From assembly GCA_951406725.2 (NCBI GenBank), contig OX597815.1, positions 214,644,001 through 214,708,000 of the forward strand: a stretch of 64,000 bases of DNA. Reading direction: 5' to 3'. Made by a program: the position numbers and the translations under genes. This DNA comes from Octopus vulgaris (lineage: Eukaryota). This document shows positions 5,272-64,000 of this stretch, piece by piece. How positions within the stretch are numbered: the first letter of the stretch is position 1; every line of letters begins with the position of its first letter. The notes beneath the pieces were generated by a model that was not told where the DNA came from, made no database searches, and was given only the letters and a program-made list of their open reading frames with translations.

Positions 5272-6085
5272 ATCATCATCATCATCATCATTTAACGTCC
5301 GTTTTCCATGCTAGCATGGGTTGGACGGTTCAACTGGGGTCTGGCTGCACCAGGCCCAGTCTGATCTGGCAGTGTTTCTACAGCTGAATGCCCTTCCTAA
5401 TGCCAACCACTCCGAGAGTGTAGTGGGTGCTTTTTACGTGCCACCGGCACAGGTGCCAGAGGAGGCTGGCAGATGGCCACGATCAGATGGTGCATTCTAC
5501 GTGCCACCGGCACGGGGACCAGACGAAGCTGGCAACGGCCACGGTTGGATGATGCTTTTTATGTGCCACCAGCACAGAGGCCAGTCGGGCGGCGCTGGCA
5601 ACGGCCACGTTTGGATGGTTCTCTTACGTGCCACCGGCACTGGTATCACAGCTACAGATTCCATTGATGTTGATAGATTACGATTTTGATTTTGATTTTG
5701 ATTTTCACGTGCCTCAACAAGTCTTCACAAGTGGAGTTTTGTGTCCCAAGAAGGAAGGAATGCATAAGTCGACTGGCTACATACCAGGTAGAGGCCACGG
5801 GTTATGGTCTCACTTTTCCTGCAGGGTCTTCTCACGCACATCATACTTCCATAGGTCTCGGTCTCTAGTCATTTCCTCGGTGAGACCTAAACTTCGAAGG
5901 TCATGCTTCACCACCTCGTCCCAGGTTTTCCTGGGTCTGCCTCTTCCACAGGTTCCTTCAACCGCTAGGGTGTGGCACTTTTTCACACAACTATCTTCAT
6001 CCATTCTCGCCACATGACCATACCAGCGCAAACGTCTCTCTTGCACACCACAACTGATGCTTCTTAGGTCCAGCTTTTCTCTCAA
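5272..6085 (-). mobile_element. 5'-truncated RTE-clade LINE (ORF C-terminus 5810-6085, 3' UTR hairpin array, (GAT)n tail)
   Basis: ORF: RRLRWYGHVARMDEDSCVKKC...GRGRPRKTWDEVVKHDL...DRDLW; tail ...ggacgttaaatgatgatgat. Confidence 0.9.
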
Positions 6086-6149
6086 AGAAGCATCAGTTGG
6101 ACCTAAGAAGCATCAGCTGTGATGTATATATGTATATATATATATATGT

Positions 6150-6550
6150 CATCATCATCATCTTCATTGTTTAACGTCCGTTTTCCATGCTAGCATGGGT
6201 TGGATGATTTGACTGAGGTCTGGCGAACCAGATGGCTGCACCAGGCTCCAATCTGATCTGGCAGTGTTTCTACAGCTGGATGCCCTTCCTAACGCCAACC
6301 ACTCCGAGAGTGCAGTGAGTGCTTTTACGTGCCACCTGCACAAGAGCCAGTTTGGTGGTACTGGTAGTGGCCACTCTCAAATGGTGTTTTTTACGTGCCA
6401 CCTGCATTGGAGCCAGTCCAGCGGCACTGGTAACAACCTCGCTCCAACGTTTTTTACACATGCCACCAGCCAGCACAAGTGCTAGTAAGGCGACGCAGGT
6501 AATGATCACGCTCAAATGGTGTTTTTACGTACCATCAGCATGGAGGCCAG

Positions 6551-6551
<1 letters not shown>
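6150..6551 (-). mobile_element. RTE 3'-UTR-only copy (hairpin array plus (GAT)n tail)
   Basis: Same terminal ~190 bp and gtgccacc(t/g)gcac units as 5272-5640; no ORF. Confidence 0.85.
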
Positions 6552-6610
<59 letters not shown>

Positions 6611-17703: not shown

Positions 17704-17959
17704 TGTTTTTACATGGTACCACATGGGTGCTTTTACATGGTACTGCATGGGCATTTTTACATGGTTCCACACGAGCACTTTTATGTGGCCATTCTATGTC
17801 CATGAATCTTACAAGTTTTCCACAAGCAAAAAACGGTTTATATTCTGTGTAACTCTGGTCCCACTCTGTGACCCAAGATGCTACAGAGCAGGATCAAACC
17901 CGAAACTACTGGACTGTGAAATGAAATTCTTAATATCATTCATGCTGCATGTGTTTTTA

Positions 17960-18634: not shown

Positions 18635-20173
18635 TAGTGGGGAGAGTGTCTGCCTGTTGGTAACTATGTATTTTTTGTTTGTAGGTTTTTTGTGAATGCA
18701 TATATACATCTGGTGTTTATGTATATGTACATTTATATATTAGTGTGTGTATTTGTGTAAATTCAGTTGCATAGTATTTGTTTGTGTATGCATGTATGTA
18801 TGTAGGTGTCTAAGAAGAGGTGTAGGTGTTTGCCTAGCATATCTGCATTCATCTCTACTACTACTACTGCTGCTACTACTACTACTACTACTACATAAAT
18901 TAAACATTTTATATTCATTGCCACATGCAGATATTACAAGCATGTTTGTTATGTAAGAATAAATTATGTATATTGTCTCTTGCCTAACAACACCTCATAA
19001 ATAACTTATCTTCCTCTCATATGGTATACTGTGAATTCTGCCATTCTGCTTTTCTTAAAAAAACATATTCCTCACATTTCCTTCTAAATCTTATATCTGT
19101 GAAACTTCACAAAACTATGACTTCTGTTAATTAAAGTTCTATTACTAAAAATCACCATTTTTATGTAATTAGCATCATGTGTCAAAGCAGGTATATCTGT
19201 GTGGTTGTGAAGCTTGCTTTGTAACCATGTGACTTGGTTCAGTCCCAGGGTGGAATCTTTCGGAAATGTCTTCTGTTACATAGATATTCACTATTGTAAT
19301 CAGATCTACTTATGATTGATTGCCTACATTTTCCCACTTCACAACTATTCTAAATAAACCTTTTGTTTTTTCTTTTCCTTGTTAGTCCAAAGAGGAAGGG
19401 TTATACTCACAGCCTGTGAAAACCTCTGGAATGAAAGGGCAGAAAAAAATTTGGGGGTGATGTTAATTTCCGAACTCCTACCAGTTATATTATACATGAT
19501 AAAATCCTGCCCCAAAAATCTTATATTATCAACTCCAACCACTGAAAAAATGTGCTTATTTGGTTTCTTTAAATTCTCCTATGGCACTCCCTAATTTTAA
19601 CTTTGCTCTCTTTTTTATTTTTTTTTTTGACATTTTAGAAAGAACTTAGACTGGCTCTTTTGTTAAGAAGTCAGCTTCTTTGCCCTGTGATCTCAGGTTC
19701 ACTTTATTGCATGGTGCCTTGGACAAGTGTCTTCTACCATAATAGCACCAAGCCAATCAAAGTCTTTCTGATGTGTGGATTTGGTAGATGGGAACTGAAA
19801 GAAGCCCGTCATGTGTCTGTGTGTGGATTTTTAAGTCATAGATTTTCTATAGAATTCAGTTCCAGCACTATAAGTTATAATGTTTCATGTGCAAAAATGT
19901 CTATGTAAACAAATCAGTCAAAAATAGGAAAATAGATAATAGTTGTATATACACATTTTGAGAGTTATTGCTCTTTCGTCAATACTACATTCACTCCCAT
20001 ATATATAAACACACACAAAGGGTTTACTTAGTTTCCACCTATTAAATTTAAGTCACTAGGTATAGATCAGCGTAAGGCTCTAATAGAAGACTTTGCATCA
20101 GATGCATGTAATGGGATGGAACCCAAAGCAAACTTCTTAACTGCACAGCAGTGCAGTGCTTGCACCTTCTATT

Positions 20174-20565
20174 CATCATCATCATCATCGTTTAACGTCC
20201 GCTTTCCATGCTAGCATGGGTTGGACGAATAACTGACGGCTGGTGAACCAGATGGCTGCACCAGGCTCCAATCTTGATCTGGCAGAGTTTCTACAGCTGG
20301 ATGCCCTTCCTAATGCCAACCACTCCAAGAGTGTAGTGGGTGCTTTTACGTGACACCGGCATGGGGCCAGTCAGGTGGTACTGGCAATGACCACACTCGA
20401 ATCTTTTACACATGTCACCGGCACAGGTGCCAGTAAGATGATACTGGTAACGATCACGCTCGAATGGTGTCTTTTATATGCCACCAGCACAGAGGCCAGA
20501 TAGCCACTCTGGCAATGATCACGCCCTGATGGTGCTCTTAATACCCTACTAGCACGGGGCGTGAG
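20174..20565 (-). mobile_element. RTE 3'-UTR-only copy
   Basis: (CAT)n-cgtttaacgtccgctttccatgctagcatggg start on +, with hairpin units. Confidence 0.85.
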
Positions 20566-20826
20566 TGTAAAATGTGATTCAGTAAACAGTATAGTGTGAG
20601 TGTGTGTGTATACGCACATGTAAAATCATTGATTTAACATTCACTTTTCCATGCTTGCATGGATCAAATGAAATTTGTTGAGACAGATTTTCTGCAAGAA
20701 TCTCCTTTTGTGATCAACCCTCTCTTGTTTTTCAAGGGAAGGTAATATTTTCCCCTAGTCTTTGAAACACAAACAAATCAACCGCCAGACAATATGTGCA
20801 CATGCATGCATGCGTGTGTGTGCATG

Positions 20827-22834: not shown

Positions 22835-23135
22835 TCATCATCATCATCATCATCATCGTTTAACGTCCGCTTTCCATGCTAGCATGGGTTGGATGATTTG
22901 ACTGAGGGCTGATGAACCAGATGGCTGCACCAGGCTTCAATCTTGATCTGGCAGAGTTTCTACAACTGGATGCCCTTCCTAATGCCAACCACTCCGAGAG
23001 TGTAGTGGGTGCTTGTACGTGCCACCAGCACGAGGGCCAGTCAGGCAGTACTGGCAATGACCTTACTCGAATCTTTTACACATGCCACCGACACAGGTGC
23101 CAGTAAGGCAATGCTGGTAACGCTCATGCTCAAGA
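22835..23135 (-). mobile_element. RTE 3'-UTR-only copy
   Basis: Close relative of 20174-20460, with two hairpin units. Confidence 0.85.
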
Positions 23136-23458
23136 TGTTTGCAATTTTCTGTGCACATGCACACACACACACACACACACACATGCACATACACACACAT
23201 AGACACAGGTATGGCTGTGGGATCAAGAAACTCCCTTTGCAAATATGTGGCTTTGAGTTCAGTTGTCTACTATAGCCACTGGCTGACCAATGCTGTACGA
23301 GTGTGGAAGCCCTTTGTGTGTGTTTGTGTTTATCTCCCTACCACTTGACAACCCGTGTTGGTTTGTTTACATCCCCTAGCATAGCAGTTCAGATAAACAA
23401 GGCCAATGGAATATGTATAAGACTTAAACAAAGGAAAATAAGTACTAGGGTCAATTTG

Positions 23459-24403: not shown

Positions 24404-24877
24404 TACATGCACACATACATACATGCATATATGTATATATTTATATATAACTGTACACAAACATCTTTATTTTAATGCCCACTTTACTATGCTTGCATCG
24501 GTCAGATGGAATTCATTGAGGCAGATTTTCTATGACAGGATGCCTTTCCTGTTGCCAATCCTTACCTGTTTCTAAGCTAGGTAATATTTTCCCTTAGCAA
24601 GAGATTCTTTTGCAGAATATTGGAAATGAATGACACCACTTGTGTGATGTCAATGTCTGTTGACAACTATCAAACCATGTCAAAACAAGGAAACACACAC
24701 ACACACATGCAATGAGTTTCTGTCAATTTCTGTCTACTGTATCCACTTTGAAGGTTTTGGTTGGCTCCCAAGACTATAAAAGAAAACACTTGCCCAAGGT
24801 ACCACACAGTAGGATAGAACCTTAAAAACATGTGATTGGTAAACATACTTCTTAACCACTCAGCCACAACACACACA

Positions 24878-30292: not shown

Positions 30293-31134
30293 TATAGTGC
30301 TGTAGCCCTAATTAGCTGAAGGGAATGATCTTAGTCTTTGGAGCTGCAAGATGACCTCACTAATGTTGGGGACTATGTAAAAAAGTACCCAATATACTCT
30401 GTAAAGTGGTTAGCATTAAGAAAGGCATTCAGCTACAAAAACTATGCTTAAGTAGACAGTGGATCCTCAGACCCTTTTAATCCTCTCAAACTGTAAAATC
30501 CCTACCAGCATGAAAGACAGACATTAAAAGATGATGATGATGATGATGATGGTGACATCAACCCCTATCTCCCAAATTAATTGGATAAGAAATTAATCCT
30601 CATCATAGATATAAAATTAAATCTGACTGTAGGTGTTTAATCTACAATGCTGACCATCATAAATTACTGGTAGGATTCAGTTAAGCCATCAAAGGAGCTT
30701 CTTTGTGGTCACTTGACCTGCTGTGAAATAACAGTCAAATTTCCTGCAAATCGCAAAAAGAAGAACACATTGAATAATGGATTCTAAGATACATCATCAT
30801 CATTGCCATTATCATTGTAACATCCACTTTTCTGTGCTTGCTTAGGTGAAATGGAATTCATTGAGACAGATTTTCTGTAACTGCATCTATTTTCTGTCAG
30901 CATCCCTGTTTCCAAGGAAGGTCGTATTTCCCGATGGTTTAAATATGTTTTCACAGAAAATTGGAAACAAACAATAGGTTGCCTGCACAATAATGAGTCT
31001 TGTTTATAGCCACTACACACTGTCAAGACAAAGAGCCACAGTCACACATATATGCATACCATTCTATTATCGTTTGCTTGTTTTACCCATTAGACTGTGA
31101 CCATACAGTCTAGTGGGTAAAACAGCCATGTATG

Positions 31135-34025: not shown

Positions 34026-34614
34026 CTAAGACATTTATCCATGGTCATTAATGATAGATGACGGCTTCAGAAACAGATAAATAAATTCAGGTGGTGAGAA
34101 TCTTATAGACCCCTGCACTTTGTTTCATCATTGTTCTAACATCCAGCTTTCCATACTTTGCATAAGTCAGATGGAATTTGTTGAGGCAGATTTTCTGTGG
34201 CTGGTTGCTCTTCCTGTTACCAACCCTCAGCTGTTTCCAAGTAAGGTTCCATTTCTCCTTGACTGGACATGTTTTCATGGCAGTTTGAATATGAACGACA
34301 CCACTTGTATGATGGTGACACTCATTTTACAGCTATCACACAATGTCAAGACAAGGACAAAAACACACCTATGTATTATTACATATATGATTTGAAAACA
34401 CAACACCTAATAACCAAATGACATATCTTTTGTACCCCTCTGATGAGATTTTGCCTAATACAATGCTTTAATTATTGTAATTTAATATTTTAGGCTAAAT
34501 TAAATCAGGTGTAGGAGAATATGTTGGATTTTTGCAGATAATAAATTATATTAATGCTACATCTCCATTTTCTAATTTTTGTTTATATAATACGCATACT
34601 CACAAACTCGGTGA

Positions 34615-34866
34615 ATGGCATCCGTTGCTAGTGGAGCGCTAAGAGTACCATACGGGTGAGATCGTTGCCAGAGCAACAAGCTGGCCCTCGTGCCAGTGGC
34701 ACGTAAAAGCACCCACTACACTCTCGGAGTGGTTGGCGTTAGGAAGGGCACCCAACTGTAGAAACTCTGCCAGATCAGATTGGAGTCTGGTTCGCCAGAC
34801 CTCAGTCAAATCGTCCAACCCATGGTAGCATGGAAAGCGGACATTAAATGATGATGACGATGATGA
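34615..34866 (+). mobile_element. RTE 3'-UTR-only copy
   Basis: gtgccagtggcacgtaaaagcacccactacactctcggagtggttggcgttaggaagggc ... (GAT)n. Confidence 0.85.
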
Positions 34867-35265
34867 TATATATATATATATACTTTATAAAGTGGTTGGC
34901 ATTAGGAAGGGCATCTATAAGTAGAAACTGTGCCAAAGTAGACAGTAGAGCTTGGTATATACTTCTGACTTGCCAGCTCCTGTCAAACTGCCCAGCCTGT
35001 ACCAGCATGAAAGAAAGAAGTTAAAGAATGAGGACGTGATGATGATGCTGGGCTTCTTTCAGTTTCTGTCTACCAAATCCACTCACAAGGCTTTCGATGG
35101 CCTGTGGCTATAACAGAAGAAGTTGTTGCTTATTTGTATGCTATAAAATAACTAATATCATTCTTCAAGTTATCTCAATGAAATAGGATTCTAAGGAAGT
35201 AGAATTAGGTTTCTGACTCTGAGACACAATGAAATATGAGCAATAAGGATATATGTTCTGCGGTG

Positions 35266-41727: not shown

Positions 41728-42729
41728 AGTTTTGTTGCTGTTGGTAGGAGTAGGGTGAGAAATCTGTCAAGAAGACTATTTGTATGAAAACACTTGCTTT
41801 TGAGGTCAGAAAATGTCTGTCCTTCTAATCAACAAAAAATGATTACTTCACTGTGAATAAAACAAACCATTTGGTCATAAAATGTGCAAAAGCCTTGTGG
41901 TGTTTGGTGACACTGCATACTAAACAAATGAGAACTTTTGTTTCAAAGCAAGGACTGCTGTCCAGAATGAGTTTTTCTTCTATAATATGTCTATGTGTGT
42001 GTGTTTGGGAGTTTTAATGCTTAAGAATGACTTGGACACTCATGTCAAGCTGTCAAGCTCAGATTTAAACTTAAATGCTGTAAATGTCGATCACTTTTAT
42101 GTCTCTCCCACCCTATGTTATTGCTCCCTTTTTATCTGTTTTACCCTACATCTTTTCTCTATATTCACCCCGTATAATGTTGGGCAGCCCTTGAACCTCT
42201 CCCATATACAACCCACCCTGTCACGTTTTCACATTTGTCCATCTCTTTTTCTCAACCCTGTGACTACTCCCTTTCCACTCCCCTGTTTTCTGCCATGCTC
42301 TCCCATCCTCTTTTCTTACTATCTCTCACTCCTCCATCTGGGATCATCAACCAGTCTAATTTCTGTTCTCCTTCAATTATAAAGCCAGTTTATGCCTTTC
42401 ATGTTACCAGACTATCATCACTGGTGCAGGTGCCACAAAGAAAGCACTCAGTACACTCTGCAAAATGGTTGGCATCACGAAGGGTATCCAGCCATAAAAA
42501 CCGTACCATAATAGACATTAGTGCATGATCTAGTCCTCCAAATCATCAAACACTATCAAACCAGGATGGAAGCTGGACAATAAATGATGATGATGATAAA
42601 AAGTTTGAGCACATACATCTTATTCAAGTACTTGGCCATGTAATACTTACATCATCTGTGAAGTGGATTATTATCAGTGTAATCAATATTTTTCTCATTT
42701 ATGTTTTATTAATATATGGGATATATTTA

Positions 42730-45885: not shown

Positions 45886-48199
45886 TGGTTAAATTATTGT
45901 CTCTGCAGTACCATTGGCCAACCATCTAATTTATTTTCCTATATTTCTCATCGAATTCATGCTAACACCAGTTTATCACTAGTTGGTTATTAATTCTAGT
46001 TATTATCAGTTCTTTCCAGCAGATATTTTTGCTGGCAAGGCAGGGGTGGTGGATGTAGCGAGTTGTGGGGAAGGTGTTTAGTTTTGTTTCACTATTTTAA
46101 TCAGATTAAAAAACTATTGATATTGAATTTTCTTTCACACTCTTTGCCTTATGCTTTCCTCATCGATTTAATAATTTCTTTGTCATCTGAACTTTTTATC
46201 TGTTTTTATTATTTATTTCTATTTCTATTATTTATTTATTTTTTTAATTTATCTATTTACCGATCTGGAATCTGATTTGGATTTTATATCAATAAAACCT
46301 ACATTAATCCTAGACATTTCATTACCATCATCTGACCAGGACTGGAGTTAGCTAATTAATGATGCAGCTAACACATTTTCCTGTGTGTGTGTGTGTGTGT
46401 GTAATGTGAGAGAGTGCATGTGTAATTCTTATTATGTGGATCAGCTATGTGCAAATGATACACAGGCTGCTGCCTCTAAAATACAGCTTGAGTGTGTGTG
46501 TATACTCACATGTGCATGTCAGTGTGTTTGCATAAATGCATTTGAATATGTATGTACATATGTGTGTATTTATCTATACAAGAGTGTATGTATGTCTGTA
46601 TATATGTGAATGTATAATACTTCATTTTCATATCTTTCATGTGGTCTGTTAAGAAGTCTGTAGTTACATTTAAAAAAATGCTGTTGTAGTCATAGGTTGT
46701 GCAAGTGGCTTAGATTACTAACTGCAAGGCCATGTGTTCAAATTTTCATTCAGCTACTGTTTCATTATTAGAGTAACTAAGTTGTTTATCCAACTTTTTG
46801 ATCTGGCAGCCAAATCTTCCTCAGTAACCTACCAACCTATCCTGTTTTTAATGAGCCAATATGGGAGGCCTCTGTGCAGTCAATCAACCTGCTAGAAACA
46901 GCAACCAAATTTCCCTAAAACATTAATCTACGGTAGTAAATGAATGCATAGGATTATGTCCATAATGGTCTTTGTATATTATGTCTAAAAATAAACATGA
47001 TGGCTATGGTTGGACTACATTTGGTCATTGCTTTGTTCAGTCAAAATTGAGCAACAACAATAACAACCTCATCTTGTTTATTAAAATGGTAATGACTTAT
47101 CTTTTACTTGTTTCAGTCATTGGACTGCAATCATGCTGGTGCCCCGCCTTGAAGGATTCAGTTGAACGAGTCAACCCCAGTATTTATTCTTTTAAACCTG
47201 GTACTCGTTCAATCAGTTTCTTTTGCTGAACTGCCAAGTTACAGGAATGTAATCAAATCAACACCAGTTGTCAAGCAGTGGAGGGGAGGGACTAAATCAT
47301 AAGATTTTGGTTGGCCTATGTCTATCGTAGAAGACACTTGCCCAAGGTGCTGTGCAGTGGGACTGAACCCGGAACTGTGTGGTTTGGAAACCAGCTTCTT
47401 ACCACACTTTTTAATTTTTAGAATTACATTCCTAATATAAAAAAAATATTTTAATAGTCTTTCTTCTGCAGGAAAAACAACCCCTTGAATTATCTAGGTC
47501 ATATTTTTTCCCCTTCCTTCAACTTTCAACAAATTTATCTGGATGCCCTCCACTCCTTCTCTCAGCTGAGTGATCCATGTCTTGCAGGCTCGTGGGTGCT
47601 TGTGCCATGTAAAAAGTACCCATTTCAGTGTCACATAAAAAGCACCTGTACCAATGCCTTGTGAAAAGCACTTGTGCTGGTACCACATAAAGATCACCCT
47701 TGCTAGTGCCTTGTCAAAGGTACCCAGTACACTCTGTAAACTTTTTGGCATTAGGAAGGGCATCCAGCCATATTGAAACAGACCATTGGAGCCTGGACAG
47801 CTTTCTGGCTGGCCGCCAATCCTCTCAAAGTGCCTAAAGCCCATGCCAGCATGGAAAACAGACATTAAATGATGATGATGATGTTAAAGATTCTAAACTA
47901 CTCATCTAGATTTTTCCAATATTTCATTCCAGGTCTGTCATGAGCCCCAGGGCTCATAATGCCAGACCGTAGCTCAGTTTACATGGCATATAAGTAACTG
48001 ACATCACAACACTGCCCCACCCCCAAACATAATACCAGTTTTTTGCAGGGTTAACTTCCCAGCTATTGTTGGAAATAATTGACAGCTGAGTGGACTGGAG
48101 CAATTTGAAATGAAGTGTCTTGCTCAAGAACGCAATGCACCACCCAGTCAATCAAAACCACAGCCTCATGATTATAAGTGCAGCACTCTAAACACTAGG

Positions 48200-52816: not shown

Positions 52817-53460
52817 CTGTGTGTGTATGTATGTATATATATGTGTGTGTGTGTGTGTGTGTGGGTTTGTATGTATGTGTTACTGTCATCTTGCCTTGAT
52901 ATTGTGTAAAAGTTGTAAGCAAGTGTCACAGTCATGAAAGCTGTGCCCTTCATTTCCAATCTTCCATTAAAGCATATCTGGTCACAGGGAGCATATTACT
53001 TTGCTTGGAAACTGGTGAGTGTTGGTGACAGGAAGGGCATCCTGCCATAGAAAATCTGCCTCAACAAAAATTCCACCCAATTTATGTGATCACAGAAAAG
53101 TGGACATTAAACAGATAATGAAGATGATGATGATGGCAGTGGTGGTGATGATTATCATCATCATCATCATTATCAACAACAGAGCAATGACCAAAATACC
53201 TCCTAGTGTTTCATTCCATCTCTTATATTCTGAAATAAAACCCACCCAGGTCCACTTTGGCTTTCTGATGTTGATGTAATTGAAAACAGTCAAAAGGCAA
53301 TGCTGCCCCATCATCACAATCCAACTACTGGAACCTGTAAAAGATTGAGAGAATATATTCAGTACTTTTCCTCCCCCCACCATCTCCATTTCCCTTCAAT
53401 TTTCTTAGATAAATATATTATACCCACATTCATCAGGCAGCACAGATAGCCCCAACACAT
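51670..53460 (-). pseudogene. Fossil ORF fragments (51670-51950, 52230-52600, 53180-53460) separated by repeats
   Basis: IYSLNLLQV (53355-53341); FVYFAEMSSFRQ (52308-52294); LFLIHSCPGEEAKGVFLIGM resembles FLIWICHEEKTNQYIYG at ~45460. Confidence 0.4.
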
Positions 53461-53792: not shown

Positions 53793-54539
53793 CTATACAC
53801 ATCTATATTAAGATAATATCAAAATGACTGAGCCTCTTCATTGTCATCATCATCATCACCATCATCATTGCTGTTAATGTCATTTTTGATATCCATTTTC
53901 CCATGCTAATATCCATTTTTCCATGAGTTAGATGAAACTTATTAAGGCAAAGTTTCCAAGGCAAGATGCTCTTCCTGTTGCCAACCCTACCTAGTTTTCA
54001 AGTAAGATATTTTTACTCAATTAGTTCCCCACTCATGTCCTCCAAACTAAGTGACATAGGCTTAAAAGAGAATGTAAACAGTGTTACTGTCTTTGTGATA
54101 ATGAGGACATGTAGAGTCAACGTCCACACAGACTCACACATACTTACATACATGCATACATGCATACATGCATATATGCATGTATGCATGCATTCATGCA
54201 AACAAGCTTTTGTAAAGTTTTCATTTACCAACTTCACTCACAAGTTTTTGACTACTCTGAGATAATACCAGAAGACACTTGCCCCATATACCAAACAGTG
54301 AGACTTCATTGATATGAATTTAAATATCACTGGTGTTTGACTTTCTGTTTCGTTTGTGTAGTGATTGTTAAATACCAATAAGATATCAATGAGGACACTC
54401 ATGTGTGTGTGTGTGTGTGTGTCTGTGTAGTATATGTATATATATATGTATGTGTGTATATATGTATGTAGGTATATATATGTATGTATATATCTATATG
54501 TATATATATATTTATATACGTATATGTATATATATATAT

Positions 54540-55250
54540 CGTCGTTTAACGTCCGTTCTCCATGCTAGCATGGGTTGGACGGTTCGACCGGGGATCTGGG
54601 AAGCCAGAAGGCTGCACCAGGCTCCAGTCTTATCTGGCAGTGTTTCTACAGCTGGATGTCCTTCCTAACGCCAACCACTCCGTGAGTGTAGTGGGTGCTT
54701 TTTACGTGCCACCTGCACAGGTGCCAGGCGAGGCTGGCAACGGCCACGGTCGGATTGGTGTATTTTATGTGCCACCGGCACGGAAGCCAGATGAGGCGGT
54801 GCTGGCATCGGCCACGAGTCGGATGGTGCTTTTTACGTACCACCAGACCAGGGATCCTGGCTGGTTCACTTCGATTTCGCTTGCCCCAACATGTCTTCGC
54901 AAGCAAGGGGGTTGGCATGGGTGCCTGTCGTACGGTCAGATTGGTGTATTTTACGTGCCACCGGCACAGAAGCCAGTGGAGGCGGCGCTGGCATCGGCCA
55001 CGAGTCGGATAGTGCTTTTTACGTACCACCAGACCAGGGATCCTGGCTGGTTCAATTCGATTTTGACTTCGATTTCGATTTCGCTTGCCCCAACATGTCT
55101 TCGCAAGCAAAGGGGGGTTGGCATGGGTGCCTGTCGTTGGATGAGGTTCTATATCGACTTTGCTTGCCTCAACAGGTCTTTGTGTCCAAGGGAGGAAAGG
55201 CATTCATAAGTGGGCTGGGCTCACTTGTCCTGCCTGGTCTTCACACGTAC
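54540..55250 (-). mobile_element. RTE 3' end (last codons plus 3' UTR with ~186-bp tandem duplication)
   Basis: gtacgtgtgaagaccaggcaggacaagtga ORF end; 54751-54931 repeated at 54937-55138. Confidence 0.85.
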
Positions 55251-56830: not shown

Positions 56831-56904
56831 TATTTGACCCTTTTATTATTAATACATTTATATATATATATGTATTTATATTTATATATATGTATATATA
56901 TATA

Positions 56905-58470
56905 TCATCATCATCATCATCATTTAGCGTCCGTTTTCCATGCTAGCATGGGTTGGACGGTTCAACTGGGGTCTGTGAAGCCGGAAGGCTTCATCAGGCC
57001 CAGTCAGATCTGGCAGTGTTTCTATGGCTGGATGCCCTCCCTAACGCCAACCACTCCGTGAGTGTAGTGGGTGCTTTTTACGTGCCACCCGCACAGGTGC
57101 CAGACAGAGCTGGCAAATGGTCATGAACGGATGGTGCTTTTACGTGCCACAGGCACGGGGGCCAGGCGAGGCTGGCAACGGACACAAGCGGATGGTGCTT
57201 TTACGTGCCACCGGCACAGAGGCCAGATGTGGCGGAGCCGGCAACGACCACGATCGGATGGTTTGCTTAACCACAGCTGCAATTTCCACTGATGTTGATC
57301 GACCTCAATTTTGGTTCTGCTTTCTGATTTCTGATTTGATTTGGTTTGATTTTGATTTTGATTTTGACTGTTCTCACTGGTCTTGCATACTTCCATAGGT
57401 CTCGGTCTCTAGTCATTTCCTTGGTGAGACCTAAACTTCGAAGGTCGTGCTTCACCACCTCGTCCCAGGTTTTCCTGGGTCTACCTCTTCCACAGGTTCC
57501 CTCAACTGCTAGTGTGTGGCACTTTTGCACACAACTATCTTCACCCATTCTCGTCACATGCCCATACCAGCGCAGACGTCTCTCTTGCGCACTACAACTG
57601 ATGTTTCTTAGGTCCAACTTTTCTCTCAAGGTACTTACACTCTGCTGAGTATGAGTACTGACATTACACATCCATCGGAGCATACTGGCTTCATTTCTTG
57701 CGAGCTACACATATCCTCAGCAGTCACAGCCCATGTTTCACTACCATGTAGCATGGCCGTTCGTACACATGCATCATACAGTCTGCCTTTTACTCTGAGC
57801 GAGAGGCCTTTTGTCACTAGCAGGGGTAAGGGCTCTCTAAACTTTTCCCAGGCTATTCTTACTCTAGCAGTTACACTTTCAGCACACCCACCCCCGCTAC
57901 TGACTTGGTCACCTAGGTAGCGGAAGCTATCAACTACTTCTAGTTTTTCTCCCTGGAACATGGTAGACGTTGGTCTCTGCACATTTTCAGTGTTTATTGC
58001 TCCTGAGCATCTGCCACAGACAAAAACTATTTTCCTAGTTAGCCTTCCTTTGACATTGCTACACCTCTTATGTGTCCATAGCTTACACTTGGTGCATCTT
58101 ATAGAGTTTCTACCTACACCTTTTCTACAGATCGAGCAGGGCCATCTACCTGAAGGCGTTTGTGACTTGTCTACTTTCCTACTTATTAGGACTTTGGTTT
58201 TGGCTAGGTTGATTCTAAGGCCCTTCGATTCTAAACCTTGCTTCCACACCTGAAACTTCTCCTCCAGTTTTGATAGTGACTCAGCAATTAGAGCAAAGTC
58301 ATCAGCATAGAGGAGCTCCCAGGGGCATCCTGTCTTGAATTCCTCCGTTATTGCCTGGAGGACTATGATAAATAGGAGGGGACTGAGGACTGAACCTTGG
58401 TGGACCCCAACCTCTACCCGGAATTCTTCACTGTACTCGTTGCCAACCCTCACCTTACTAGCAGCGTCTA
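56905..58470 (-). mobile_element. 5'-truncated RTE-clade LINE: RT (GVHQGSVLSP, LLYADD), PHD-like insert, C-terminus, 3' UTR array, (GAT)n
   Basis: ORFs 57635-58585 and 57267-57683 are joined by one frameshift near 57700; ORF sequence above ~58470 is microsatellite and flank. Confidence 0.95.
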
Positions 58471-61140: not shown

Positions 61141-61144
<4 letters not shown>

Positions 61145-61550
61145 CGCAGGAGTGGCTGTGTGGTAAGTAGCTTGCTAACCAACCACATGGTTCTGGGTTC
61201 AGTCCCACTGCGTGGCATCTTGGGCAAGTGTCTTCTACTATAGCCCCGGACCGACCAATGCCTTGTGAGTGGATTTGATAGACGGAAACTGAAAGAAGCC
61301 TGTCGTATATATATATATATATGTGTGTGTGTTTGTGTGTCTGTGTTTGTCCCCCTCGCATTGCTTGACAACCGATGCTGGTGTGTTTACATCCCCGTCA
61401 CTTAGCGGTTCGGCAAAAGAGACTGATAGAATAAGTACTGGGCTTACAAAGAAAAAGTCCCGGGGTCGATTTGCTCAACTAAAGGCGGTGCTCCAGCATG
61501 GCCGCAGTCAGATGACTGAAACAAGTAAAAGAGTAAAAGAGAGTAAAGAG
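61141..61550 (+). mobile_element. Full-length young family-A SINE
   Basis: High similarity to 32987-33397. Confidence 0.92.
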
Positions 61551-61632: not shown

Positions 61633-63150
61633 CTATACAGAGAGGCTGTCAGCAAGGTTAGGATTGGCAATGAATATAATGAAGAATTCCGGGTAGAAGT
61701 AGGTGTACACCAAGGCTCAGCCCTCAGTCCCCTTTTATTCATCATAGTCCTCCATGCAATAACAGAGGAATTCAAAACAGGTTGCCCCTGGGAGCTCCTC
61801 TATGCTGATGACCTGGCTCTCATAGCAGAATCACTACCGGAACTAGAAAAGAAATTTCGGGTGTGGAAGCAAGGGTTAGAATCAAAGGGCCTTAGAGTAA
61901 ATGTAGCAAAGACCAAAGTTATAGTAAGCAGAAAGGCGAACTCAGCACACACACCCTCAGGCAGATGGCCCTGCTCGATCTGTAGGAAAGGTGTAGGTAG
62001 AAACTCCATAAGATGTACCCAGTGTAAGCTATGGATGCATAAGAGGTGCAGCAACATCAAGGGAAATTAACTGATAAGATAGCTTTCATGTGCGGCAGAT
62101 GCACAGGGACAATAGACACCACAGATACTCAGAAAACAGATTCCATCACACTCCAGGGGAAGAAACTAGGAAGTAGTTGATAGTTTCCGCTACCTGGGTG
62201 ACCAAGTTAGTAGTGGAGGTGAATGCTCAGAGAGTGTCACCACTAGAATACGAATAGCCTGGGCAAGGTTTAGAAAGCTCCTACCCCTACTGGCGACAAA
62301 GGGTCTCTCGCTCAGAGTTAAAGGTAGATTGTATGACGCATGTGTGCAAACTGCCATGCTTCACGGTAGTGAAACATGGGCTGTGACTGCAGAGGACATG
62401 CTTAGACTTGAAAGAAATGAAGCTAGCATGATCCGCTGGATGTGTAATGCCAGTGTGTGCGCACGACAGAGGGTAAGCACCCTGAGAGAAATGCTGGACA
62501 TAAGAAGCATCAGATGTGGTGTACAAGAGCGACGCTTTCGATGGTATGGTCATGTACTGCGGATGGATGAGGAGAGATGTGTGAAGAAGTGCCTCTCCCA
62601 AACAGTTGAAGGTATCAGGGGGAGAGGTAGACCCAGGAAGACATGGGATGAGGTAGTCAAGCATGACCTCAGAGCGTTGGGCCTCACAGAGGCAATGGCG
62701 AAGGACCGAGATCTCTGGAGATATGCTGTGACTGCAAAGACCCGGGCTGCCCATTCAAAGTACCTTGGATTCCAGAACATCCCGCTGTGCTTGAGGAGAC
62801 CTTTTGAGTCAAGTACATGAACATCGAAAATAAATATCAATGGAAATAGTAGATGTGGTACCTGTGCCGGTGGCACATAAAAAGCACCATCCGTACGTGG
62901 CCGATGCCAGCGCCACCTCGACTGGCTTCTGTGCCGGTGGCACATAAAAAGCACCATCTGAACGTGACCGATGCCAGTGCCACCTTGGCTGGCTTCCGTG
63001 CCGTTGGCACGTTAAAAGCACCAACCGATCATGACCGATGCCAGACTCCACTGGCACCTGTGCCGGTGGCACGTAAAAGGCACCCACTACACTCGTGGAG
63101 TAGTTGGCGTTAGGAAGGGCATCCAGCTGTAGAAACACTGCCAGATCAGA
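61633..63150 (+). mobile_element. 5'-truncated RTE-clade LINE (second subfamily) with PHD-like insert and 3' UTR array
   Basis: GVHQGSALSP, LLYADDL, WPCSIC..C..C..H..C, RWYGHV, GRPRKTW; frameshifts near 62068 and 62170; terminal tail missing. Confidence 0.95.
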
Positions 63151-64000
63151 CTGGCAGATTAACATTGTGGAGTAAGTGTGAGAGGCCAAATCTGACCAGT
63201 TCTAACATAAACCAGTTAGAATATTTTGGTCAGATATATCCAGTTAAAATGTTAAAAGGTTAAGACTCAAAGCAGGATAGAAATAATCTATCAATACATT
63301 GGATAATTTCGAATTTGCAAAACACAAGAGGTGGATATTCACGTAATTGATTTGAACTATATTTTCTTCCATAATTTTCTTGTTGCTTAAACTAGTACCA
63401 CATTCAAACACACAGGTCTATGTCCCTATATGTGCGTGTAAATATTTCTAAATTTTTTTTAAAGCCAAATCAATGCTAGTTAAAACAAATAATATAAATC
63501 AAGGATTTGTACTTCTACCTTGTGTTTTGATATTTTGAGGTTAGGACCCTTCTTCAGGAAATCTTCAGAGATATGGTGTCGTGAGTTAAGAAACATGCAC
63601 ATACAATTTTGTGATTTGAATAACAATTATTCATTTTTTTTTTCACAGATAAAGAGGTGGTGTGGGGTGGGGAAAGGGGCTGTTCTCCTACTGAATGAGC
63701 TATGAACTCATGAAGCATGTCAAGACATTTTTTACTTTCCCCTGATATAGAGAATAACGTATTTACATCTGATGAAGTCCAACTCTAAAAGCTTTTCAAA
63801 GCTGTCGTTTAACTAGAAATTCACCCAGTTTTATACATATGTATTTATTTCCCATGCACACAAATGTATATGTGTATATTTATATATACATATATACATA
63901 TTTGTGCATCTGTGTGTGTGTGTGTGTGCACGTTTCTGAATTATGAGATGTGGTTCCGATTAATCCTTCTCCAATCTCTTTCTATGTTTGGCTTTAGATT

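What the first reader, a model, noticed from the sequence alone, without database searches (positions are those of the whole stretch)
62862..63135. Tandem array of double-hairpin units with variable loops immediately downstream of a reverse transcriptase
Seen: units start at 62862, 62929, 62996 and 63058 (periods 67, 67, 62). Each has a near-invariant palindrome GTGCC-ggt-GGCAC plus RTAAAAAGCACC, and complete units add a second stem GCCAG-(variable loop)-CTGGC. The same architecture, with different loops and 1-4+ units, occurs at 5425-5640, 6320-6550, 20340-20560, 23010-23130, 34690, 54695-55030 and 57070-57260, always just 5' of the block ggcgttaggaagggcatccagctgtagaaac. Stems persist across two clearly diverged RTE subfamilies while loops change, which suggests selection on RNA structure (RT/RNP loading sites, a monomer-like promoter, or a processing/ribozyme motif). 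From memory, and unverified, the aggaagggcatcc block lies next to self-cleaving ribozymes in UTRs of other animal RTE elements.
Basis: partly seen in the sequence, partly recalled or inferred. Interest (0 to 1): 0.7.

Follow-up and report, generated by a model that had tools for sequence, protein, structure and literature searches.

The report
Retrotransposon wearing its head behind
The repeats lie in the tail of a dead copy of an abundant animal jumping gene and match a piece that its relatives carry in front of their gene; they are predicted to fold into small RNA knots that likely help the element's own copying enzyme grip its RNA.

Summary
The array is real: four units (periods 67, 67, 62), and eight such arrays in the window, each just before the same block. 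It is the 3' UTR of a truncated, frameshifted RTE-type LINE (best protein hit Octopus, 87%). The last unit plus block is homologous over about 70 nt to sequence that related RTEs carry in the 5' UTR: the block sits directly before an RTE ORF in 9 of 37 distinct outside loci and inside a 3' UTR in none. Here it follows the ORF in 3 of 3 RT copies that reach the ORF end. The lineage thus seems to have captured a bipartite RTE module (5'-UTR piece plus 3' tail) behind its ORF and multiplied its front part. Stems are 88-100% identical between subfamilies whose fourfold sites are 53% identical; loops 24%. The unit core fits an H-type pseudoknot, with stem 1 compensated in two outside sequences, but covariation within the window is nil and folding energy unremarkable. 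A twister-like ribozyme fills the same slot in one relative, yet no known ribozyme is here. Most likely role: protein-loading site (inferred, untested). New variant of a known kind.

The parts
61633..62757 (+). 5'-truncated, frameshifted remnant of an RTE-type single ORF (second half of the RT and C-terminal region); starts in a (TA)n tract
   Evidence: tblastn to full-length homolog P0002 residues 723-1096; Pfam RVT_1 E 1.5e-13; frame breaks between 62070 and 62170
61972..62103 (+). PHD-like C4HC3 zinc finger inserted inside the RT
   Evidence: Pfam PHD E 1e-4, below cut-off; 116 of 120 listed homologs have it 30-90 aa after YADD; fold search of the sister copy's model returns PHD fingers, none at E<=0.001
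62758..62861 (+). poorly conserved spacer between ORF end and array; sister copies carry an (AAAATC)n/(GAAATC)n tract here, possibly the relic tail of the upstream LINE
   Evidence: 60 matches over 117 nt to the 5383 copy; alignment; relic reading is inference
62862..62928 (+). unit 1 (67 nt): core GTGC-N-GGTG-GCAC-A-rich-CACC, spacer, second hairpin GCCAG/CTGGC with long loop
62929..62995 (+). unit 2 (67 nt), same layout
62996..63057 (+). unit 3 (62 nt), short-loop type; GGTG changed to GTTG in this copy only
   Evidence: 63004 T>G in nearly all other copies (table 3)
63058..63084 (+). terminal core (predicted H-type pseudoknot), homologous to the 5'-UTR core of L028 and to L046, L053
63085..63102 (+). 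short hairpin between core and block (CACTC/GAGTG in sister copies; last base mutated here)
   Evidence: 63102 A>G in most copies
63103..63136 (+). conserved block GTTGGCGTTAGGAAGGGCATCCAGCTGTAGAAAC: an RTE 5'-UTR domain also found in SINE-like elements of other animals
63140..63155 (+). second-hairpin motif GCCAG/CTGG after the block; the copy is cut here and the family tail is missing
   Evidence: loose ends at 63154 in all four runs
5272..6091 (-). sister copy with ORF end, spacer, 4 cores, block, tail stem-loop and (TGA)n
5290..5327 (-). family 3' tail stem-loop; homologous to the end of the ORF in related RTEs
   Evidence: fold z -2.4; reads as [11 protein letters not shown] / PSNPC, matching C-termini of P0002 and P0006; aligns with the L001 ORF end
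56904..58468 (-). sister copy of a diverged subfamily: RT remnant, spacer, 3 cores, block, tail
   Evidence: 79% DNA identity to the focal ORF
54538..55245 (-). copy starting in the last ORF codons, with a duplicated [spacer + units] segment, 5 cores, block, tail
6150..6552 (-). 5'-truncated copy: 4 units (one lacking CACC), block, tail
20173..20568 (-). 5'-truncated copy with variant units, block, tail
22840..23140 (-). 5'-truncated copy, block, tail
34618..34867 (+). 5'-truncated copy: one variant unit, terminal unit, block, tail

Best explanation
The array lies in the 3' UTR of a dead copy of an abundant RTE-type LINE and matches a module that related RTEs carry in their 5' UTR; this lineage likely captured that module behind its ORF and multiplied its front part, and each unit is predicted to fold into a small pseudoknot plus hairpin that would act as a loading site for the element's own endonuclease-RT protein. 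Steps. Shown: (1) terminal unit + block are homologous to 5'-UTR sequence of other RTEs; (2) here they sit between ORF end and the RTE tail; (3) stems are kept while loops and silent sites drift; (4) unit number varies. Inferred: (5) the module arrived as a bipartite short element (5'-UTR piece + 3' tail) joined to a full LINE by template switching or read-through, the old tail decaying to the (AAAATC)n tract; (6) slippage or unequal exchange made the tandem units; (7) the fold is YGUGC/GCACR (stem 1) crossed by GGUG/CACY (stem 2) over an A-rich linker; (8) it works on the RNA by binding the ORF protein, and because the whole module lies in the last 400 nt, every 5'-truncated copy keeps it, which would explain the excess of short copies.
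For: Position in relatives: block directly 5' of an RTE ORF in 9 of 37 distinct outside loci, 27 with no RT hit in either tested position, 1 downstream of an ORF that proved to be a separate element beyond a complete tail; a further 5' case in L020. No array or block after the ORF end in 6 of 6 relatives inspected (L019, L020, L021, L022, L024; L042). In the window 3 of 3 RT copies reaching the ORF end continue into array and block, and a fourth copy begins in the last codons. The tail translates to the C-termini of related proteins, so the module was put between ORF and tail. Core homology: L028 (block before an ORF) has GAGA/TCTC with GGTG..CACT, L046 GTGA/TCAC with GGTG..CACT, at the same distance from the block; on that 12-sequence alignment 93.5% of cells pair (1 of 500 shuffles as high), two stem-1 pairs change on both sides, three of four GGUG/CACY pairs never vary. 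A pseudoknot descriptor fits upstream of 6 of 39 outside blocks against 15 of 780 shuffles. L034 has three 64-nt structured repeats before the same block in a 5' UTR. Constraint. Unit-number variation: joints skipping 64-75, 139-149 and 193-215 nt and back-jumps (table 5). For protein binding rather than promoter, translation or cleavage: the block is kept in tRNA-headed, non-coding elements (L014, L016, L023, L043, L048, L050; heads judged by eye, tRNA hit for L016 only at E 0.97). Precedent: R2Tg protein binds a pseudoknot with base triples in its 3' UTR (PMC12222951, passages); bipartite RTE derivatives and conserved RTE 5'-UTR domains in SINE bodies (PMC5786205). Summed contig depth at the block is about 20 times that on the ORF in run X1 (the tool warns this is no copy number).
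Against: No covariation above shuffles within the window: 123, 54 and 190 of 500 shuffles reach the paired fraction; RNAalifold picks another structure with covariation term +0.12. Sense-strand folding is unremarkable (z -0.82, -0.23, +1.31, -0.03) while the antisense scores -2.19. The GGUG/CACY stem is invariant, so it says nothing by covariation; double changes on the cross-species alignment are not above shuffles (134 of 500), and only 3 outside sequences carry the core, chosen because they resembled it. The simple 6-bp hairpin is 2.6 kcal/mol more stable than stem 1 alone and the outside copies keep a U-G there. Three copies share a unit that has lost CACC. Of the 6 descriptor hits only L028 and L046 are this fold; L053 lacks the first strand, L041 is the twister, L006 and L049 look unrelated. 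Block-stem pair counts are biased by the search pattern. No full-length element of this organism was seen, and no transcription, folding or binding data were obtained.
Confidence: 0.5

Rival explanations
1. Passenger repeats: only the block and tail matter; the units are slippage duplicates whose stems are kept by stem-templated repair, recent swapping of 3' ends between subfamilies, or slow decay.
For: No covariation or folding excess within the window; unit number is free (1-5); blocks without arrays are common; a CACC-less unit spread in one subfamily.
Against: A recent swap would keep loops too, yet loops are 24% and spacers 67% identical beside 88-100% stems; the core survives with compensated stem 1 in unrelated hosts; long-loop and short-loop unit types keep their order in both subfamilies.
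Confidence: 0.2
2. The pseudoknots block 5'-to-3' exonuclease decay, so LINE transcripts are trimmed to stable short RNAs (units + block + tail) that are then retrotransposed as SINE-like copies.
For: Three of five truncated copies of this family examined (6275, 20296, 34741) begin 6-11 nt before a stem 1 (read by eye); L046 appears to start at the core and L053 inside it; large excess of module over ORF; in relatives the slot can hold a ribozyme, and 5' ribozymes of R2 are thought to protect uncapped RNA (PMC12222951, passages). Tandem exonuclease-resistant knots in flavivirus 3' UTRs are recalled, not checked.
Against: Five copies only; RT pausing in the GC-rich second hairpin predicts the same truncation points; the other two copies start elsewhere; a 9-bp knot is small for such a block; no RNA ends were observable (table 6 empty, no raw RNA reads).
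Confidence: 0.12
3. The units are internal promoter monomers on DNA, like tandem monomers of mouse L1 (recalled), moved to the 3' end so that truncated copies stay transcribed.
For: 5'-UTR origin; tandem repeats before the block in a 5' UTR in L034; Kojima speculates that conserved RTE 5' domains bind transcription regulators (PMC5786205).
Against: Stem 1 changes sequence while keeping pairs; the block lies 290 nt or more inside the 5' UTR in L001 and L028; it is retained in elements that have tRNA-like heads of their own.
Confidence: 0.1
4. The unit or the terminal module is an undescribed self-cleaving or processing ribozyme.
For: Same slot as a twister-like match in L041; twister variants sit at the 5' end of the RTE Perere-3 (PMC8501958, passages); hairpin followed by an A-rich strand resembles the first domain of pistol (recalled).
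Against: Rfam: 0 hits at gathering in the window, none over the array at E<=10; no hammerhead, twister L4, pistol or HDV motif recurs across 8 modules; cleavage in a 3' UTR would cut the ORF from the tail, yet 3 of 3 ORF-bearing copies run through the array; truncated copies do not share one 5' base.
Confidence: 0.07

Closest known systems
Bipartite non-autonomous RTE derivatives (Bov-A, RTESINE, WALLSI3; Kojima 2018, PMC5786205)
   Same: A 5'-UTR piece of an RTE joined to an RTE 3' tail with microsatellite end; the 5' piece is strongly conserved across distant animals and reused in SINE bodies.
   Different: Here the bipartite module is the 3' UTR of ORF-bearing LINEs and its front is tandemly repeated; this block was not found in that paper's supplement text (its Fig. 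S4 alignment was not readable).
R2Tg 3'-UTR pseudoknot (PMC12222951)
   Same: Pseudoknotted RNA with an A-rich tract in the 3' UTR of a non-LTR element, bound by the element's protein: what this may work like.
   Different: Other clade, single copy, contiguous with the 3' end, structure and binding shown; here repeated, 150-400 nt from the end, derived from a 5' UTR, untested; no sequence comparison made.
Twister variants at the 5' end of Perere-3 RTE (Liu 2021, PMC8501958)
   Same: Structured RNA in an RTE 5' UTR; a twister-like match abuts the same block in L041.
   Different: No twister features in the window; module is on the 3' side.
TART terminal repeats / mouse L1 monomers (both recalled)
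   Same: 5'-UTR sequence repeated in the 3' UTR (TART); variable-number tandem units in a LINE UTR (L1).
   Different: Different clades; whether this element still has the module at its own 5' end is unknown; no promoter evidence.
RTE-2_OV of Octopus vulgaris (Petrosino 2022, PMC9115989)
   Same: Single-ORF RTE in the likely host genus.
   Different: Described with a terminal C2H2 finger and a 3' UTR mostly of microsatellite; this family has a PHD-like finger inside the RT and a structured 3' UTR.

Membership tests
RTE-clade non-LTR retrotransposon | single ORF with AP endonuclease and RT | tested here: inconclusive
   Met by full-length homologs (about 1030-1100 aa, PF03372 + PF00078); all window copies lack the N-terminal half.
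RTE-clade non-LTR retrotransposon | 3' stem-loop followed by a microsatellite tail | tested here: met
   14 of 15 blocks lead to a tail with (TGA)n or a short relic; the focal copy is cut before it.
RTE-clade non-LTR retrotransposon | RT groups with reference RTEs in a tree | not tested
   No named reference set at hand; the clade call rests on architecture and on recalled C-terminal motifs.
Bipartite RTE derivative | 5'-UTR piece joined to 3' tail without the ORF between | tested here: met
   Block is 5'-UTR in 9 of 37 outside loci; tail is the ORF-end of relatives.
Bipartite RTE derivative | moves as its own unit with a defined 5' end and target duplications | tested here: inconclusive
   Short copies have varied 5' ends; target duplications were not sought, flanks are microsatellite.
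Ceph-domain SINE (RTE-5' half) | shares the Ceph RTE-derived sequence | tested here: not met
   Printed SepiaSINE, OegopSINE, IdioSINE2 sequences lack the block and core motifs.
Twister ribozyme | P4/L4 motif, UAA cleavage loop, GAGGG strand; Rfam RF03160 match | tested here: not met
   No Rfam hit; L4-like motif in 1 of 8 modules at 2 mismatches.
Hammerhead ribozyme | CUGANGA and GAAA core at a three-way junction | tested here: not met
   CUGANGA in 1 of 8 modules in sense, 1 of 8 antisense, not conserved; no Rfam hit.
Pistol ribozyme | P1 hairpin, A-rich strand, then P2, pseudoknot partner, P3 and cleavage junction (recalled) | tested here: not met
   The partner follows the A-rich strand directly; pistol pattern absent in 8 of 8 modules; no Rfam hit.
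HDV-like ribozyme | nested double pseudoknot with catalytic C in J4/2 | tested here: inconclusive
   No Rfam hit and J4/2-like motif not conserved; no full descriptor search was run.
H-type pseudoknot | two interleaved stems, 1-nt loop 1, A-rich loop 3 | tested here: met
   Complementarity in 85% (stem 1) and 93% (stem 2) of cells over 28 cores.
H-type pseudoknot | covariation in both stems | tested here: inconclusive
   Stem 1 has double changes in outside copies; stem 2 is invariant.
Exonuclease-resistant RNA | halts XRN1 at a fixed position | not testable with these tools
   No raw RNA reads among the runs offered.
LINE with terminal repeat (TART-like) | same module at both ends of one element | not testable with these tools
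   No whole genome held, no full-length copy in the window, none in collections.

The most novel reading that the evidence does not exclude
An RTE lineage moved an undescribed, cross-phylum 5'-UTR pseudoknot, which occupies the slot held by a twister ribozyme in relatives, into its 3' UTR as a tandem array, where it stops 5'-to-3' decay and cuts LINE transcripts down to stable short RNAs that retrotranspose: a LINE that manufactures its own SINE.
Probability: 0.1. Interest if true: 0.82.

Novelty: new variant of a known kind. Interest (0 to 1): 0.45.

Why it matters
It points to a small, testable RNA motif (core + block) shared by RTE 5' UTRs and SINE-like bodies in distant animals and absent from Rfam, which bears on the open question of what conserved SINE bodies do. 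The 3' placement is a natural experiment: it argues against cleavage and translation roles and offers a reason why this repeat reaches about one copy per 4 kb in this window (15 blocks in 64 kb). RTE proteins are of interest as gene-insertion tools, so a cis element that improves loading or stability would be useful. If the units are passengers, it is an ordinary repeat-family detail.

Tried and rejected
Ceph-domain identity (my first recollection): rejected on the printed sequences. Known ribozymes and other Rfam families: none. tRNA genes in the window: 0. Whole-genome survey: no genome held. RT search of metagenome contigs with the single protein and of viral contigs with the alignment: no relatives. 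Block in viral contigs: 0, then 2 hits inside what read as coding DNA, dropped before the counts (L061, L062). Core-only or core+block patterns: 0 in genome contigs, 0 and 6 in viral contigs, the 6 without a block and taken as chance. Covariance models R1, R2 found no new outside cores beyond L046 (in the model) and L028 (E 0.47, not in R2); an L013 hit lacks the A-rich linker and block; ten MAG genomes added nothing new. Raw-read run X22 laid only 41 reads, and the RNA-labelled runs are contigs, so no start, end, strand or expression could be read. The sigma-70 scan does not apply to an animal genome. Earlier findings: none. Paper searches for the block text, RTE + ribozyme + pseudoknot, tandem 3' UTR repeats, xrRNA, octopus SINE/RTE, PHD in RT and captured 3' UTRs found no description of this array; Repbase, Dfam and subscription papers could not be searched, and the family itself is very likely in repeat libraries.

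Full report
Observation. The four units are at the stated places with periods 67, 67, 62. A loose core pattern gives 31 hits against 0-1 in each of 10 Markov shuffles; 27 belong to these arrays. The seven other arrays exist, six of them on the minus strand, and all 8 lie just 5' of the block. The block itself occurs 15 times at up to 2 mismatches: 8 with this array, 3 with an older form (runs of 24-26 nt units at two, a single core at one), 4 with none or a trace.

The element. Upstream lies a reverse transcriptase remnant (Pfam RVT_1) that starts at residue 723 of a 1102-aa homolog and is broken by frameshifts. The best of 771 hits is an Octopus bimaculoides protein at 87%; full-length hits are single ORFs of about 1030-1100 aa with AP endonuclease and RT, so the host is likely an octopus and the element RTE-type (no tree was built). 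Sister copies end in a stem-loop (fold z -2.4) and (TGA)n. The focal copy is cut at 63154; in all four runs laid, loose ends there continue with the sequence that leads to the tail. Three of three RT copies that reach the ORF end run on into spacer, array and block, and the copy at 54538-55245 begins in the last codons; a fourth RT fragment is internal.

Where the block belongs in relatives. Scans of MAG and metagenome contigs returned loci that read as animal retroelement DNA carrying the block. Of 37 distinct loci, 9 have it directly 5' of an RTE ORF, 27 have no RT hit in either tested position (many are tRNA-head + block + tail or block + tail elements), and 1 lies 590 nt after an ORF; that one is a separate element beyond a complete (GTT)n tail. 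L020 adds another 5' case. In L001 the match runs to 42 nt with 3 differences and an in-frame ATG follows shortly. Six of six relatives inspected at the ORF end have no array or block there. The window's tail translates as [11 protein letters not shown] and PSNPC, the C-termini of P0002 and P0006 (5 of 57 full-length proteins match such a pattern, one of them doubtful), and aligns with the ORF end of L001. So in relatives the tail overlaps the ORF end and the block precedes the ORF; here a 5'-UTR module stands between ORF and tail. This is the bipartite layout described for non-autonomous RTEs (PMC5786205, parts 1-4 of 5 of the text read), now fused behind an ORF. Capture by template switching or read-through is inference; the (AAAATC)n tract in the spacer of sister copies may be the old tail.

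The unit core is part of that module. A pseudoknot descriptor fits the 120 nt before 6 of 39 outside blocks against 15 of 780 shuffles. Two are the same fold as here: L028, whose block precedes an RTE ORF (GAGA/TCTC, loop TGGTG, A-rich linker, CACT), and L046 (GTGA/TCAC); L053 keeps GGTG, TCAC, linker and CACT but lacks the first strand; L041 is a twister-like match; L006 and L049 look unrelated. Aligned with nine window copies, these agree over about 70 nt at the same spacing: 93.5% of cells pair (1 of 500 shuffles as high), covariation score 11 of 500, double changes 134 of 500, GGUG/CACY invariant in three of four pairs. The three outside sequences were picked for resemblance, so this is support, not proof. 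L034 carries three 64-nt repeats of an analogous hairpin-TTAAA-partner design before the same block in a 5' UTR, so a tandem array before the block is itself a 5'-UTR arrangement.

Constraint. Between the focal and 57027 subfamilies fourfold sites are 56 of 106 identical (53%). Across three focal units and five units of the 5383/57027 group stem 1 is 100%, GGUG/CACC 88%, the second hairpin 98%, the A-rich linker 78%, spacer 67%, second loop 24%; the block region matches four sister copies at 62-64 of 70. Against structure: within the window no measure beats shuffles, for knot or hairpin; RNAalifold prefers another pairing; sense-strand z-scores are -0.82, -0.23, +1.31 and -0.03, the antisense -2.19 (these programs cannot score knots); the 6-bp triloop hairpin beats stem 1 alone by 2.6 kcal/mol; three copies share a unit without CACC. 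Unit number is fluid: contig joints skip one, two or three units or jump back.

Ribozyme question. Rfam gives 0 hits at gathering in the window and none over the array at E<=10; recalled hammerhead, twister, pistol and HDV motifs do not recur across 8 modules. In L041 a twister-P1 match (41 bits, E 7e-6, under the gathering score) ends in the first bases of the block (1 of 20 loci scanned), in line with twister variants at the 5' end of the RTE Perere-3 (PMC8501958, passages). So the slot before the block can hold a ribozyme, the knot, or a third motif (L009, L025, L030, L034). Cleavage in a 3' UTR would part ORF from tail, and ORF-bearing copies run through intact, so I rate a ribozyme low.

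Mechanism. I commit to an RNA cis element that loads the ORF protein (origin about 0.8, this function about 0.5 overall). The block persists in non-coding, tRNA-headed elements, which need neither an RNA polymerase II promoter nor translation; R2Tg protein binds a 3'-UTR pseudoknot (PMC12222951, passages). With the module in the last 400 nt, truncated copies keep it; summed contig depth at the block is about 20 times that on the ORF in run X1 (not a copy number, and other families share the block). Rivals: passenger repeats (0.2); an exonuclease block making short mobile RNAs (0.12; 3 of 5 truncated copies begin 6-11 nt before stem 1, equally explained by RT pausing); promoter monomers (0.1); new ribozyme (0.07). 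No expression, RNA end or binding data were obtained.

Literature. Ten searches found no account of this array or block. Seen as passages only: PMC9115989 (plus section 8; four supplement files not searched and two too large, which may hold transcripts of this family), PMC4758252, PMC6765202, PMC8501958, PMC6007223, PMC13282606 (plus its supplement search), PMC8967140, PMC12222951, PMC3747384. Of the PMC5786205 supplement I read part 1 of 15 and ran term searches; its Fig. S4 alignment is held as three lines only. TART repeats, L1 monomers, flavivirus xrRNA and pistol layout are recalled. Repeat libraries could not be searched and very likely hold the family.

Verdict. Real feature; new variant of a known kind: an RTE-type LINE whose 3' UTR is a captured and partly multiplied RTE 5'-UTR module with a candidate pseudoknot. 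Interest 0.45.

Noticed in passing
window 61972-62103 (+) and about 58140-58010 (-): A C4HC3 PHD-like finger sits inside the RT, 30-90 aa after YADD, in 116 of 120 listed homologs, 113 with Trp two residues before the His; the model's top fold matches are PHD fingers, many bound to H3K4me3, none at E<=0.001. A chromatin reader inside an RT palm could steer insertion; one paper search found no description.
   Followed up: partly
L041 86-162 (-): Twister-P1-like match, below gathering score, whose last bases are the start of the block.
   Followed up: partly
L034 9-200 (+); single copy in L045: Three 64-nt structured repeats in an RTE 5' UTR, hairpin then TTAAA then a partner for the loop; similar hairpin-TTAAA motifs appear in the printed HaSE1 and EbuSINE2 bodies.
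   Followed up: partly
L009, L025, L030, L034, L036, L005 upstream of the block: A third recurring motif (GTCG-TAARAGG-CGAC type) occupies the slot before the block; no Rfam match where scanned.
   Followed up: no
window tails at 5272, 6150, 34866, 54540, 56171, 56904: 6 of 14 tails are followed by a (TA)n-like run and the focal copy starts in one, while (TA)4+ runs make up 3.6% of the window: possible preference for TA microsatellites.
   Followed up: partly
window 17707-17783 (-), 47593-47720 (+), 42421-42452 (+), 30358-30456 (+): Older relatives with 24-26 nt core-only units, lacking the second hairpin, before a diverged block.
   Followed up: partly
window 34110-34217 (-), 53028-53130 (+), 24512-24603 (-), 53938-54026 (-): A separate short family shares block and tail but has no array.
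   Followed up: no
window 20545-20568 (-) and 34618-34650 (+): A variant first unit keeps a hairpin with a shifted register and different sequence in two copies (read by eye).
   Followed up: no
L001-L024, L051-L060: Contigs filed in bacterial and archaeal MAGs hold what reads as animal retroelement DNA, often at contig ends: contamination or chimeric contigs.
   Followed up: no
window 61143-61545 (+) and many copies: Abundant tRNA-like-headed SINE with a (TA)n middle; part of its antisense strand loosely matches the core pattern (6705, 11850, 40645).
   Followed up: no
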